Made by a program: the position numbers
Part shown: in pieces, positions 1-3,000 of the stretch
How positions within the stretch are numbered: the first letter of the stretch is position 1
Layout: every line of letters begins with the position of its first letter
Source: a virus
Lineage: Duplodnaviria; Heunggongvirae; Uroviricota; Caudoviricetes
Length of the DNA: 7,298 nucleotides
IMG/VR virus record: IMGVR_UViG_2534681994_000011
Direction: 5' to 3' (one strand)

Positions 1-3000
1 AGTATCATGTGAAATCCAACTATCCTTCTGAGCCAGCACCTCTCCACCGAAAGTCAGTGCTGGCTGTTTTTTTCCTTAATAAAGCATCTGTAACTGGTTG
101 TTGTTCTGCGGGTTCTGTTCTTCGTTGACATGAGGTTGCCCCGTATTCAGTGTCGCTGATTTGTATTGTCTGAAGTTGTTTTTACGTTAAGTTGATGCAG
201 ATCAATTAATACGATACCTGCGTCATAATTAATTATTTGACGTGGTTTGATGGCGTAGATGCACGTTGTGACATGTAGATGATAATTATTATCATTTTGC
301 GGGTCCTTTCCGGCGATCCGACAGGTTACGGGGCGGCGACCTCGCGGGTTTTCGCTATTTATGAAAATTTTCCGGGATCCATGTCCGGTTTCTCTTCAAG
401 TTAACTATATGAAAAATATAAAAACAGGTCTTCTGTGAACCGGACATGAACAAAAAACAGACATGTAAACCGGACATGACCGGTTTTGTTGTGATTGTGA
501 GGTGAGAGTTTTTGCGAGGTGAGGAGTGGCTACGCAGACTGAAGTTGCCAGGCATTTAAGTCTGACCGATCGCCAGCTTCGCAGATTGCAGAAATTGCCG
601 GGTGCCCCGATATCGAATAAGCGAGGGCAACTGGATCTGGATGCCTGGCGCGATTTTTACATATCGTATCTGAGGAGAAGTAAAAACGATGTGCCTGATG
701 GCGATAGCGAAGACGACTATGAGGAGAAATTGCTTATTGCCAGATGGGAACTGACAGCAGAACAGGCTGTTACACAGCAGTTAAAAAATGAGGTGTCAAA
801 AGGAAAACTGATTGACACCGGGTTCTGTATTTTTGCCCTCAGTAAGCTGGCAATGGCGTTATCCAGTACGCTTGATTCCATCCCTTTATCCATGCAGCGA
901 CAGTTTCCTGATTTAACACCGCGCCATCTTGACCATCTGAAAACCCTTATTGCTAAGGGGGCAAATCAGTGTGCGCGGGCAGGGGATAAATTACCGGATT
1001 TACTTGATGAATATATCAGAGCAACAACTGAATAATATGATGAGCGCTGTCACAACTGCATTACAGCCCCTGATAAGGGCATTGCCGGTGACGCCAGTTG
1101 AATGGGCTGATCAAAATTATTATCTGCCTAAAGAATCTTCATATGGTGAGGGCGAATGGAAAACGCTGCCATTCCAGATCGCCATCATGAACAGTATGGG
1201 GAATGATCAGATCCGCACTGTTAATCTGATTAAATCTGCCCGTGTTGGCTATACAAAGATGTTGCTGGGGGGGGGGCGGGTATTTTATTGAGCATAAATC
1301 CCGAAACAGTCTGCTTTTTCAGCCCACGGATTCTGCCGCTGAAGATTTTATGAAGTCTCACGTGGAGGCGACGATTCGGAACGTGCCATGCCTGAAAGAC
1401 CTTTCCCCATGGCTGGGTCGTAAACATCGTGACAATACTCTCACGCTGAAACGCTTTTCATCGGGCGTCGGTTTCTGGTGCCTGGGCGGCGCTGCCGCCA
1501 AAAACTACCGTGAAAAATCCGTTGACGTGGTCTGCTATGACGAACTTTCCTCGTTCGAGCCGGATGTCGAAAAAGAGGGCTCGCCAACCCTGCTGGGGGA
1601 TAAGCGTATTGAGGGGTCGGTGTGGCCAAAATCCATTCGCGGCTCGACGCCTAAAATCAAAGGCACCTGCCAGATCGAAAAAGCCGCTAACGAGTCGGCG
1701 CATTTTATGCGTTTTTATGTGCCCTGCCCGCACTGTGGGGAGGCGCAGTATCTGAAATTTGGCGATGAGTCCACGCCTTTTGGGCTTAAATGGGAGAAGG
1801 ACAGCCCTGAAAGTGTTTTCTACCTCTGTGAACATCATGGCTGCGTGATCCATCAGTCTGAACTGGACCAGAGCAACGGGCGGTGGATCTGTGAAAACAC
1901 GGGCATGTGGACCCGTGACGGTCTGACGTTTTTCAGCGCCCGGGGTGATGAAATTCCGCCGCCGCGCTCCATCATGTTCCATATCTGGACGGCGTACAGT
2001 CCGTTCACCACCTGGGTACAGATTGTCTATGACTGGCTGGATGCACTGAAAGATCCCAACGGCCTGAAAACCTTTGTGAACACCACGCTGGGCGAGACCT
2101 GGGAAGAGGCCGTGGGCGAAAAACTCGATCACCAGGTACTGATGGATAAGGTGGTGCGTTACACGGCGGCGGTGCCTGCCCGGGTGGTTTATCTGACGGC
2201 GGGCATTGACTCGCAGCGAAACCGTTTTGAGATGTATGTCTGGGGATGGGCTCCGGGAGAGGAAGCCTTTCTGGTGGATAAAATCATCATTATGGGGCGT
2301 CCTGATGAGGAAGAGACGCTGTTACGTGTGGATGCGGCGATCAACAAAAAATACCGCCATGCGGATGGCACCGAAATGACTATTTCCCGTGTCTGCTGGG
2401 ACACCGGGGGGATCGATGGTGAAATTGTTTATCAGAGATCAAAAAAACACGGTGTTTTCCGGGTGCTGCCGGTAAAAGGCGCATCTGTCTATGGCAAGCC
2501 GGTGATCACCATGCCAAAAACCCGCAATCAGCGGGGCGTGTATCTGTGTGAAGTGGGAACGGACACCGCAAAAGAAATTCTCTATGCCCGTATGAAAGCC
2601 GATCCCTCGCCTGCGGATGAAGCCACGTCGTATGCCATCCGTTTTCCTGATGATCCGGAGATTTTTTCGCAGACAGAGGCGCAGCAACTGGTGGCGGAAG
2701 AGCTGGTGGAGAAGTGGGAAAAAGGAAAGATGCGTCTGCTGTGGGATAACAAAAAGCGGCGTAACGAAGCGCTGGACTGCCTGGTGTATGCCTACGCGGC
2801 ATTACGTGTGTCCGTGCAACGCTGGCAGCTTGATCTGGCTGTACTGGCAAAATCCCGGGAAGAAGAGACGACCCGGCCAACCCTGAAAGAACTGGCAGCG
2901 AAGCTGTCCGGAGGAGTGAATGGTTACAGTCGCTGAACTGCAGGCGCTGCGTCAGGCGCGCCTTGATTTATTAACCGGTAAACGGGTGGTGTCTGTCCAG

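What the first reader, a model, noticed from the sequence alone, without database searches (positions are those of the whole stretch)
377..486. Lambda-like cosQ/cosN joined to a non-lambda cosB with AACCGGACATG repeats
The first ~376 bp, including the 12-nt cohesive-end sequence and its immediate flanks, match my recollection of the lambda right-end/left-end junction very closely. From about 377 onward the sequence diverges and carries three copies of AACCGGACATG (one inverted at 380-390, two direct at 438-448 and 468-478, 30 bp apart) around an A/T-rich spacer. This is the architecture expected for cosB (R3, IHF site I1, R2, R1) but with a different R-site sequence, as described for lambda versus phage 21 packaging specificity. 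The mosaic breakpoint appears to fall at the first R element.
Basis: partly seen in the sequence, partly recalled or inferred. Interest (0 to 1): 0.5.

Follow-up and report, generated by a model that had tools for sequence, protein, structure and literature searches.

The report
Uncharacterised cosB packaging site, lambda-like prophage
The repeats are real and most likely form the site where this prophage's small terminase subunit docks to start DNA packaging; the site is a fourth, uncharacterised recognition type alongside those of lambda, phage 21 and N15, and it occurs in about a fifth of complete E. coli genomes.

Summary
The window is an E. coli O157:H7 lambdoid prophage. It matches lambda from 96 to 375, covering cosQ, the cohesive end GGGCGGCGACCT at 331-342 and the next 33 bp, and the match stops at 375/376.

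The exact 11-mer occurs at 380-390 (+), 438-448 (-) and 468-478 (-). A one-mismatch (+) copy lies at 475-485.

The cosB reading is strongly supported by comparison, not by experiment:
- **Conservation:** prophages of five enterobacterial genera share this small-terminase (TerS) N-terminal domain. In them cosB has diverged except for TCCGGTT at bp 54-60 of the left end and AACCGGA exactly 58 bp downstream.
- **IHF-like site:** one lies at the same offset in 7 of 8 loci.
- **Simple relatives:** Aeromonas and Pseudomonas relatives keep a single TTCCGGTTCCGGTT site at the R3 position.
- **Covariation:** TerS residue 20 tracks the base before the core. Arg goes with G; Asp, Asn or Thr goes with T.
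- **Cassette exchange:** cosB plus the first ~95 terS codons swap as a unit against the N15/Monarch type.
- **Fold:** the predicted N-terminal domain best matches the lambda TerS DNA-binding domain.

It is not lambda, 21 or N15 type. R1 is a direct repeat of R2, unlike lambda. This copy sits in a defective prophage. I rate it a new member of a known kind, of moderate interest.

The parts
301..307 (+). cosQ (GGGTCCT), the packaging-termination signal
   Evidence: GGGTCCTTTCC is nearly invariant across 7 prophages from 5 genera, with one substitution in its last bases, in E. kobei. It corresponds to lambda 48473-48479 when window 331 is bp 1. Naming this heptamer cosQ rests on my own knowledge. 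PMC4669245 says only that a 7-bp cosQ is highly conserved.
329..344 (.). cosN: the 12-nt cohesive end GGGCGGCGACCT (331-342) plus 2 flanking bp on each side
   Evidence: Identical to lambda and phage 21. The definition of cosN as 12 + 2 + 2 bp comes from PMC9026076.
343..379 (.). cosN-to-cosB spacer. It is lambda-identical up to 375, and the mosaic joint is at 375/376
   Evidence: All lambda-group megablast matches end at query position 375; alignment. Phage 21 annotates an IHF I2 site in the equivalent stretch.
380..391 (+). R3 box CATGTCCGGTTT (bp 50-61 of the left end), with invariant core TCCGGTT at 384-390 (bp 54-60)
   Evidence: No variable position in 379-395 among 41 E. coli haplotypes. 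The core is invariant in 7 enterobacterial loci. It sits at bp 50-52 in all relatives, including Aeromonas phiARM81ld.
402..414 (-). Putative IHF site I1 (TAACTATATGAAA on +; 2 mismatches to YAANNNNTTGATW)
   Evidence: The best IHF-like match is at the same offset (22 nt from the R3 start, same strand) in 7 of 8 loci. It is a perfect consensus match in the Klebsiella locus L090 and the E. coli locus L102. It aligns with the annotated I1 of phage 21. In the window alone it is not significant: 70% of shuffles do as well.
438..448 (-). R2 box (AACCGGACATG on +), inverted relative to R3 and 58 bp from it
   Evidence: The R3-R2 distance is exactly 58 bp in 8 of 8 loci, although the spacers have diverged. 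AACCGGA is invariant across genera. Only 2 of 11 positions vary among 41 haplotypes.
455..465 (-). Degenerate copy AAACAGACATG, probably not functional
   Evidence: It lies in the most variable stretch: 11 of 19 positions in 449-467 vary among E. coli haplotypes. It reads AATAGACACTA in PhiR12.
468..478 (-). R1 box (AACCGGACATG on +), a direct repeat of R2 30 bp downstream; an optional element
   Evidence: The same 30-bp spacing is found in Enterobacter kobei (AACCGGACATA). Klebsiella has a copy at 42 bp. Salmonella and Citrobacter loci lack it. L021 and L025 keep it while losing the overlapping (+) copy. L086 has lost one repeat by a 30-bp deletion.
475..486 (+). Partial (+) copy CATGACCGGTTT, which forms the palindrome 467-486 with R1
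   Evidence: Present in 21 of 25 unique haplotypes with this helix. Flagged as a terminator-like hairpin. Absent from the satellite L109 and from L021 and L025. Role unresolved.
526..1035 (+). terS (small terminase, 169 aa, GTG start). The N-terminal winged helix-turn-helix is residues 1-55 (526-690) and the putative recognition helix is residues 15-22 (568-591)
   Evidence: Pfam Phage_Nu1 matches residues 49-150 only. RefSeq annotates it as terminase small subunit. AlphaFold models. Foldseek hits to lambda TerS DNA-binding-domain chains 7lw0, 7lwr, 7lxs and 6hn7_B.
364..810 (+). Exchangeable specificity cassette: cosB plus terS codons 1 to about 95
   Evidence: Against the O111:H2 prophage L110, which carries an N15/Monarch-type cosB and N-terminal domain, identity is about 100% in the flanks (241-360 and 841-1260) and falls to 40-73% inside the cassette.

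Best explanation
Window 376-490 is the cosB subsite of a lambda-like cos site. The CATGTCCGGTT repeats are R boxes, the docking sites for the winged helix-turn-helix N-terminal domain of the small terminase (TerS) encoded just downstream at 526-1035.

Proposed mechanism, by analogy with lambda:
1. IHF bends the A/T-rich spacer at about 402-414.
2. The bend brings the inverted R3 (380-391) and R2 (438-448), 58 bp apart, face to face, so that a TerS dimer can bridge them.
3. TerS bound at R3 (bp 50-61) positions the large subunit on cosN (331-342) to make the staggered nicks and start packaging.
4. R1 (468-478) is an accessory site.

The invariant core TCCGGTT, together with the base before it, defines a recognition specificity distinct from those of lambda, 21 and N15/Monarch. 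cosB and the TerS N-terminal domain are inherited and exchanged together as one cassette of about 450 bp.

What is shown: the anatomy, the position, the conservation, the covariation, the cassette exchange and the predicted fold. What is inferred: TerS binding, IHF binding and the packaging role.
For: **Position.** R3 spans bp 50-61 of the left end. Lambda R3 is bp 50-65, with TerS contacts at bp 55-63, and N15 R3 is bp 48-60 (PMC9026076; PMC4669245). The invariant core falls at bp 54-60.

**Phylogenetic footprint.** Seven prophages share the TerS N-terminal domain at 61-80% TerS identity: E. coli (x2), Klebsiella, Salmonella (x2), Citrobacter and Enterobacter. The only conserved islands between cosN and the terS ribosome-binding site are TCCGGTT and its inverted copy AACCGGA. 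These are 58 bp apart in 8 of 8 loci.

**Within E. coli.** Among 41 haplotypes, 4 of 34 box positions vary against 28 of 77 other cosB positions (Fisher p = 0.0115). R3 has none.

**Distant relatives.** Aeromonas phage phiARM81ld, Pseudomonas phage LPPA33 and environmental viral contigs have TerS 33-46% identical with the same MATQxEVAxHL N-terminus. They carry one TTCCGGTTCCGGTT site at the R3 position. In phiARM81ld it starts at bp 52 of a record that begins GGGCGTTAGACC.

**Covariation.** In 74 unique combinations of N-terminal domain and upstream sequence, every helix ...RQLRRLQK... (residue 20 Arg) goes with ATG-TCCGGTT. Residue 20 as Asp, Asn, Thr or Ser goes with T-TCCGGTT, and all boxes of a locus change together.

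**Cassette.** An O111:H2 prophage is identical on both sides but carries the N15/Monarch cosB (GGTTGTTGTTT x3) together with the matching N-terminal domain.

**Satellite.** A terminase-less PICI-like island keeps cosQ, cosN, R3, I1, R2 and R1 of this type. Its similarity to the window ends at position 477, one base short of the end of R1.

**Fold.** The N-terminal domain model has pLDDT 80. Its most probable PDB match is the lambda TerS DNA-binding domain 7lw0_A (probability 0.91, TM 0.62/0.67, rmsd 2.7 A), with 7lwr, 7lxs and 6hn7_B also among the top 15.

**Live phages.** Induced, propagating phages PhiR12_1 to PhiR12_5 carry the same terS (99.4% aa) and cosB.
Against: - There is no binding, footprinting or packaging experiment for this class. 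I found none in the searchable literature.
- Foldseek E-values are not significant (about 0.4), because the domain is small.
- The IHF match in the window itself is no better than chance. Only its conserved position supports it.
- The Arg20/G covariation may reflect a single evolutionary event.
- Concerted change in inverted repeats is also what a hairpin model predicts.
- R1 has the opposite orientation to lambda and 21 R1, so the higher-order complex may differ.
- This copy lies in a defective prophage. terL is frameshifted and the major capsid gene is truncated. It can act, at most, in trans with a terminase from another prophage.
Confidence: 0.85

Rival explanations
1. The inverted repeats act through nucleic-acid secondary structure rather than as protein-docking sites. 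This could be a hairpin in the late mRNA upstream of terS, or a cruciform in DNA. Examples are the R3/R2 stem and the 467-486 palindrome, which could serve as an attenuator, a terminator or an RNA stabiliser.
For: Region 370-495 folds better than its shuffles (z = -3.3), with an 11-bp R3/R2 stem and a 7-bp stem at 467-486. The latter is flagged as terminator-like, with a T-rich tail. Concerted G-to-T changes in R3 and R2 keep the two arms complementary.
Against: - Aeromonas and Pseudomonas relatives have a single site with no inverted partner.
- R1 is a direct repeat of R2, yet it changes in concert with the other boxes (Klebsiella).
- The box sequence tracks one residue of the TerS helix.
- A 47-nt loop at a fixed 58-bp spacing, with an IHF-like site inside it, fits protein-mediated bending.
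- Late transcription has to read through cos.
- No Rfam family matches.
Confidence: 0.05
2. The repeats are operators for some other DNA-binding protein, of the phage or the host, that regulates terS or late-gene expression. They are not terminase sites.
For: They lie 40-150 bp upstream of terS. PerC-family and YlcI/YnfO-family genes lie just upstream.
Against: - No promoter-like site lies in 376-525.
- The boxes travel with the TerS N-terminal domain, not with the upstream genes. The O111:H2 prophage has the same upstream genes but different boxes and a different N-terminal domain.
- The boxes persist in genera where the upstream genes differ.
- A terminase-less satellite keeps them next to cosN.
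- Their distance from the cosN nick is fixed.
Confidence: 0.05
3. The site is a true cosB type, but this copy is an inert relic. The prophage cannot make terminase or capsids, so the repeats do nothing in this genome.
For: terL is frameshifted in a G10 run at 1267-1276, and RefSeq marks it as frameshifted. The major capsid gene stops after 88 codons, and in strain PV15-279 the portal gene is also a pseudogene.
Against: The cos sequence is intact and 100% identical across many O157:H7 genomes. Genomes that carry this cosB have a median of 2 copies and up to 4, so a sibling prophage could supply matching terminase in trans. This rival concerns present use, not identity, and is compatible with the main explanation.
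Confidence: 0.3

Closest known systems
Phage 21 cosB (R3-I1-R2-R1) with gp1 small terminase (GenBank M81255)
   Same: - Identical cosQ and cosN.
- R3 at about bp 50-65.
- R3 and R2 inverted about 57-58 bp apart, around an IHF site.
- The R core resembles this one: CATGTCGGGCCT against CATGTCCGGTTT, 9 of 12 bases.
   Different: - The TerS N-terminal domains show no detectable sequence similarity. tblastn aligns residues 64-166 only.
- The bases that are invariant here (CCGGTT) are not those of 21.
- R1 of 21 has the orientation of R3. Here the exact third copy has the orientation of R2.
Lambda cosB with gpNu1
   Same: - Window 96-375 is 96.4% identical to lambda, and up to 99.6% to lambda relatives.
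- Same overall cos layout, and the terS C-terminal part is about 46% identical.
- The predicted N-terminal domain has the fold of the gpNu1 DNA-binding domain.
   Different: - The R boxes are unrelated (lambda CGTTTCCTTTCT).
- The R3-R2 distance is about 50 bp in lambda and 58 bp here.
- The N-terminal domain is outside the Pfam Phage_Nu1 match, and BLASTP finds no alignment.
N15 (simple) and Monarch (complex) cosB, the third documented specificity
   Same: This class shows the same split as N15 and Monarch. Enterobacterial members have a complex R3-I1-R2(-R1) site. Aeromonas and Pseudomonas members have a single R3-position site with terS starting at about bp 79 (N15: bp 89).
   Different: N15 R3 is GAGGTTGTTGTT, with a different TerS N-terminus (MAVLLNKSDMA...). 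The Monarch-type cassette is found as the alternative allele at this very locus in E. coli O111:H2, and also in E. albertii.
cos sites of Gram-negative PICIs (EcCICFT073-type, Rpp-dependent)
   Same: Lambda-like cosQ and cosN joined to a non-lambda sequence at the R3 position. EcCICFT073 also has two cos sites and capsid and decoration genes (PMC6092414).
   Different: Those PICI sites lack I1, R2 and R1 and need an island-encoded Rpp protein (PMC9026076). The window has its own terS and terL and a full R3-I1-R2-R1 set.

Membership tests
Complex cosB of lambda-like cos phages | Lies immediately right of a lambda-type cosN, with the first R box at about bp 48-65 of the left end | tested here: met
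   cosN is at 331-342 and R3 at 380-391, which is bp 50-61. The register is the same in 7 relatives.
Complex cosB of lambda-like cos phages | Three R repeats, with R2 inverted relative to R3 and R1 | tested here: inconclusive
   R3 and R2 are inverted, so that part is met. The exact third copy (468-478) is direct with respect to R2, so that part is not met. A one-mismatch copy in the R3 orientation overlaps it at 475-485, but it is lost in L021, L025 and the satellite L109.
Complex cosB of lambda-like cos phages | An IHF site (I1) between R3 and R2 | tested here: inconclusive
   In the window there are 2 mismatches to the consensus, and 70% of shuffles do as well. The site is at the same offset in 7 of 8 loci and is a perfect match in two of them.
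Complex cosB of lambda-like cos phages | Followed by a terS whose N-terminal domain is a gpNu1-type winged helix-turn-helix | tested here: met
   terS is at 526-1035. The AlphaFold N-terminal domain has helices at 4-10 and 15-22, a wing, and a helix at 38-54. Lambda TerS DNA-binding domains are among its best PDB matches (TM about 0.6-0.67), though the E-values are not significant.
Complex cosB of lambda-like cos phages | TerS binds the R boxes, and cosB is needed for accurate cosN nicking and packaging | not testable with these tools
   This needs gel-shift or footprinting and packaging assays. Only covariation and co-inheritance were shown.
Phage 21 packaging specificity | R boxes matching the 21 set (R3 CGTGTCGGTACT; R2 and R1 CATGTCGG(A/G)CCT) and a gp1-like recognition domain | tested here: not met
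   The boxes share 9 of 12 bases with the 21 R1 core. BLASTP finds no alignment between the N-terminal domains.
Lambda packaging specificity | R boxes CGTTTCC(T/G)TTCT and a gpNu1 recognition helix | tested here: not met
   The sequences diverge from 376 onward. BLASTP finds no alignment between the N-terminal domains.
N15/Monarch packaging specificity | R3 reading GAGGTTGTTGTT and an N15-type TerS N-terminus | tested here: not met
   N15 sequence and mutational definition of R3. No meaningful alignment between the N-terminal domains.
Rpp-dependent PICI cos | An island without terS or terL, with an rpp gene next to a cos that has only an R3-position site | tested here: not met
   The window encodes terS, terL (frameshifted), gpW, portal, protease, decoration protein and a truncated capsid protein.

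The most novel reading that the evidence does not exclude
This is a fourth, mutually exclusive DNA-packaging specificity of lambda-like cos phages. It spans Enterobacteriaceae, Aeromonas and Pseudomonas. It has a readable piece of recognition code: TerS Arg20 reading the G at bp 53, with Asp, Asn or Thr paired with T. Its R1 geometry differs from lambda.

Phage satellites may exploit this modular system. At least one PICI-like island carries two convergent cos sites with two different cosB types, which would let helpers of either class package it.
Probability: 0.55. Interest if true: 0.55.

Novelty: new member of a known kind. Interest (0 to 1): 0.45.

Why it matters
Specificity of packaging initiation decides which co-resident prophages, satellites and chromosomal segments a terminase can mobilise. 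The Feiss laboratory noted that only three specificities (lambda, 21, N15) had been documented among lambda-like phages, and that more diversity would be expected (PMC4669245).

This class is present in about 20% of complete E. coli genomes, often in several copies per EHEC genome. It is unannotated and apparently unstudied. Natural variants offer a ready-made series for dissecting how a winged helix-turn-helix reads DNA: R-box ATG against ATT or ACT, helix residue 20 as Arg against Asp, Asn or Thr, and simple against complex cosB.

It would also help predict which EHEC prophages and PICIs can cross-package one another.

Tried and rejected
- **N-terminal-domain protein search.** Searching the big protein database with the N-terminal domain alone returned only fragments of the same E. 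coli protein. The full-length query was needed.
- **Genome-contig scan.** It gave only 4 loci. Two were IS-truncated terS genes and so uninformative (L005, L006). Two turned out to be Monarch-type (L007, L008).
- **PDB sequence search.** A sequence search of the PDB with TerS found nothing relevant.
- **Full-length model.** Its fold search was dominated by the long helices, with pTM 0.35. I re-modelled the N-terminal domain alone.
- **Sippy et al. 2015.** This paper (PMC5006951) is not held, so the residue-to-base contacts of lambda and 21 are cited only second-hand.
- **PhiR12 literature.** A literature search for the PhiR12 phages found nothing.
- **Ideas considered and rejected.** A phage 21-type cosB (N-terminal domains unrelated), a PICI cos (terminase genes are present), a promoter or operator, a known RNA family, and the 455-465 copy as a fourth R box (not conserved).
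Full report
**What the window is.** Window 300-1035 is 100% identical to prophage DNA in E. coli O157:H7 chromosomes such as NZ_AP018488. The gene order is lambda-like: terS (526-1035), terL, gpW, portal, S49 protease/scaffold, decoration protein and major capsid protein. The prophage is defective. terL is split by a +1 frameshift in a run of ten G at 1267-1276, and RefSeq marks it as frameshifted. The major capsid gene ends after 88 codons.

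**The observation.** The cohesive-end sequence GGGCGGCGACCT lies at 331-342. Lambda and its relatives match window 96-375 at 96.4-99.6%, and every such match stops at 375. AACCGGACATG occurs exactly at 380-390 (minus strand), 438-448 and 468-478. With up to two mismatches there are 8 matches in the window against 2.3 expected, and 0 of 200 shuffles reached 8. Five of them lie in 380-485.
- CATGACCGGTT at 475-485 overlaps the third copy and makes a palindrome.
- A degenerate copy lies at 455-465.

**Position relative to known cosB sites.** With window 331 as bp 1, the first box spans bp 50-61. Lambda R3 is bp 50-65 and TerS contacts bp 55-63. N15 R3 is bp 48-60, with bp 54-59 most important (PMC9026076; PMC4669245). 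GenBank M81255 annotates the phage 21 sites:

| Site | Coordinates | Sequence |
|---|---|---|
| R3 | 216-231 | AATCGTGTCGGTACTT |
| I1 | 238-252 | not read out |
| R2 | 273-288 | AAGGTCCGACATGAAA |
| R1 | 316-331 | TTTCATGTCGGGCCTT |

The window's box shares 9 of 12 bases with the 21 R1 core. The R3-R2 spacing is 58 bp here and 57 bp in 21.

**The protein.**
- tblastn aligns lambda, 21 and N15 small terminases only from about residue 59-73 onward, at 40-47% identity.
- Pfam Phage_Nu1 matches residues 49-150 only.
- BLASTP finds no meaningful alignment between the first 61 residues and those of lambda, 21 or N15.
- An AlphaFold model of residues 1-61 has pLDDT 80. It shows helices at 4-10 and 15-22, a wing, and a helix at 38-54.
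- Its most probable Foldseek match in the PDB is 7lw0_A (probability 0.91, TM 0.62/0.67, rmsd 2.7 A). 7lwr, 7lxs and 6hn7_B are also in the top 15. All four are lambda or lambda-like TerS DNA-binding domains. The remaining hits are MerR, RacA and excisionase winged-helix proteins.
- The E-values are about 0.4, so this is supporting evidence, not proof.

**Comparative test within E. coli.** I aligned 41 distinct upstream haplotypes taken from 80 IMG/VR loci plus PhiR12_1. Positions 379-395 (R3) never vary. R2 and R1 vary at 2 of 11 positions each. The spacer 449-467 varies at 11 of 19 positions, including the degenerate copy. Overall 4 of 34 box positions vary against 28 of 77 other positions in 376-486 (Fisher p = 0.0115). 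One haplotype (L086) has lost exactly 30 bp between the two direct repeats. Two haplotypes (L021, L025) keep the 468-478 copy but have replaced the overlapping (+) copy.

**Comparative test across genera.** I recovered loci for TerS homologues that share the N-terminal domain:

| Locus | Host | TerS identity |
|---|---|---|
| L090 | Klebsiella | 80% |
| L102 | E. coli | 77% |
| L092 | Salmonella | 70% |
| L104 | Salmonella | 66% |
| L094 | Citrobacter | 62% |
| L096 | Enterobacter kobei | 61% |

In their alignment, everything between cosN and the terS ribosome-binding site has diverged except TCCGGTT (R3) and AACCGGA (R2). R3 starts at bp 50-51 in each. R2 starts exactly 58 bp later in 8 of 8 loci. 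The best IHF-consensus match lies 22 nt from the R3 start, on the same strand, in 7 of 8 loci. It is a perfect match (TAACCAATTGATT) in Klebsiella and L102. In the window itself the match has two mismatches and is not better than chance. R1 is present with the same 30-bp spacing in E. kobei, at 42 bp in Klebsiella, and absent from the Salmonella and Citrobacter loci. R1 is therefore accessory.

**Deep relatives.** Aeromonas phage phiARM81ld, Pseudomonas phage LPPA33 and many environmental viral contigs encode TerS 33-46% identical, with the same MATQxEVAxHL N-terminus. They have a single site, (C/G)xTTCCGGTTCCGGTTGG, just upstream of terS. In phiARM81ld the record starts with a lambda-like end (GGGCGTTAGACC), the site begins at bp 52 and terS starts at bp 79. 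This mirrors the simple N15 arrangement. A single site with no inverted partner argues against a purely structural (hairpin) role.

**Covariation.** There are 74 unique combinations of N-terminal domain and upstream sequence. Every TerS with the helix ...RQLRRLQK... (residue 20 Arg; E. coli, Salmonella, Citrobacter, Enterobacter) has boxes reading ATG-TCCGGTT. Every TerS with Asp, Asn, Thr or Ser at residue 20 has T before the core (ATT-, ACT- or CGCT-TCCGGTT). All boxes of a locus change together, including the direct-repeat R1 in Klebsiella. Arg contacting G in the major groove would be a conventional reading, but that is my inference. The number of independent switches is unknown and may be one.

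**Cassette exchange.** An E. coli O111:H2 prophage (L110) is about 100% identical to the window in the flanks (241-360 and 841-1260), but only 40-73% identical between about 364 and 810. In that interval it carries three GGTTGTTGTTT boxes in the order R3(+), R2(-), R1(+), and an N-terminus MAFLLNKSDMA.... That is the N15/Monarch type, since N15 R3 is GAGGTTGTTGTT. cosB and the DNA-binding part of TerS are therefore swapped together, as expected for a matched site-reader pair.

**A satellite carrying the site.** In E. coli CEA601S a terminase-less island lies next to clpS/clpA. It encodes a DUF927 primase, SSB, PerC, and capsid and decoration genes, much like EcCICFT073 (PMC6092414). It carries cosQ, cosN, R3, I1, R2 and R1 of the window's type. 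Its similarity to the window ends at position 477, one base short of the end of R1. About 150 bp away, on the other strand, is a second complete cos with a Monarch-type cosB. EcCICFT073 is known to have two cos sites. I did not find a report that such a pair carries two different phage cosB types.

**Distribution and prior knowledge.** The 115-bp cosB segment alone is found in 1074 of 5426 complete E. coli genomes. There are 1692 copies, with a median of 2 per genome that has any, and no feature is annotated at any listed site. Among 50,697 phage records, only PhiR12_1 to PhiR12_5 carry this terS at high identity. The open literature I could search names lambda, 21 and N15 as the documented specificities and mentions Gifsy-1, phi80 and Monarch. 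None describes this box. Subscription papers were not searchable, so prior description cannot be excluded.

**Rivals.**
- *Hairpin.* A hairpin or terminator-like reading has some support from folding (z = -3.3) and from the palindrome at 467-486. It is contradicted by the single-site relatives, the concerted change in the direct repeat, the link to a protein residue and the fixed 58-bp spacing around an IHF-like site.
- *Operator.* An operator for another regulator is unlikely. The boxes follow the TerS domain and not the upstream genes, and no promoter-like site lies in cosB.
- *Relic.* This copy may be an unused relic in a defective prophage. That is plausible and does not change what the element is.

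**Verdict.** The element is a cosB of the lambda-like kind belonging to a distinct, widespread and apparently uncharacterised TerS/cosB specificity class with core TCCGGTT. Its conserved core is R3, an IHF-like site and R2, and its optional R1 is oriented as R2. All functional steps remain inferences from anatomy, conservation, covariation and analogy to lambda.

Noticed in passing
L109 4000-4600 (E. coli CEA601S, NZ_CP166713.1, about 942820-943420): A terminase-less PICI-like island next to clpS/clpA (DUF927 primase, SSB, PerC, capsid and decoration genes) carries two convergent complete cos sites. One has the window-type cosB and the other an N15/Monarch-type cosB (GGTTGTTGTTT x3). This suggests that helpers of two different terminase specificities could package it.
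   Followed up: partly
window 1267-1276: The large terminase gene is broken by a +1 frameshift inside a run of ten G. Phage PhiR12_1 reads GGGAGTCGCCGGG at this spot. RefSeq marks the gene as frameshifted in O157:H7. I did not examine whether the homopolymer is a phase-variable tract.
   Followed up: partly
window 6652-6918 and onward to 7298: The major capsid gene stops after 88 codons (Pfam Phage_cap_E positions 1-80 of 329). In the matching RefSeq record it runs straight into a tail-protein gene. An internal deletion has therefore removed most of E and the genes that follow it.
   Followed up: partly
L110 1500-2265 (E. coli O111:H2, NZ_CP077551.1) against window 364-810: This prophage is identical to the window on both sides but has the N15/Monarch-type cosB and TerS N-terminal half. 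It is a recent swap of a specificity cassette of about 450 bp. E. albertii (L007) carries the same Monarch-type arrangement.
   Followed up: yes
window 467-486: The palindrome AAACCGG-ACATGA-CCGGTTT, followed by a T-rich tail, scores as a terminator-like hairpin just upstream of terS. It is kept in most E. coli haplotypes and partly in E. kobei. It is lost in L021, L025 and the satellite. Its role is unexplained: a second TerS half-site, or an RNA structure.
   Followed up: partly
L086 (IMG/VR UViG_2675903621_000013), equivalent to window 440-469: One haplotype has a clean 30-bp deletion that removes one of the two direct R boxes. That is the product expected of unequal crossing-over between R2 and R1. 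Feiss proposed the same kind of event for the origin of the simple N15 cosB.
   Followed up: no
window 372-379 against lambda bp 41-47 (L003): Lambda itself reads TCCGGTT at bp 41-47, right at the mosaic joint: TTTTCCGG|TTTAAGG in lambda against TTTTCCGG|GATCCATGTCCGGTTT in the window. The shared TTCCGG may be recombination microhomology, or it may be coincidence.
   Followed up: no
L092, L094, L096, L102, L104 (cosN region): In relatives of this class the 12-nt cohesive end varies mostly in its right half, for example GGGCGACGCGCT, GGGCGGCGTCCG and GGGCGGTAGCCT. cosQ (GGGTCCTTTCC) stays almost invariant. This agrees with the published asymmetry of cosN.
   Followed up: no
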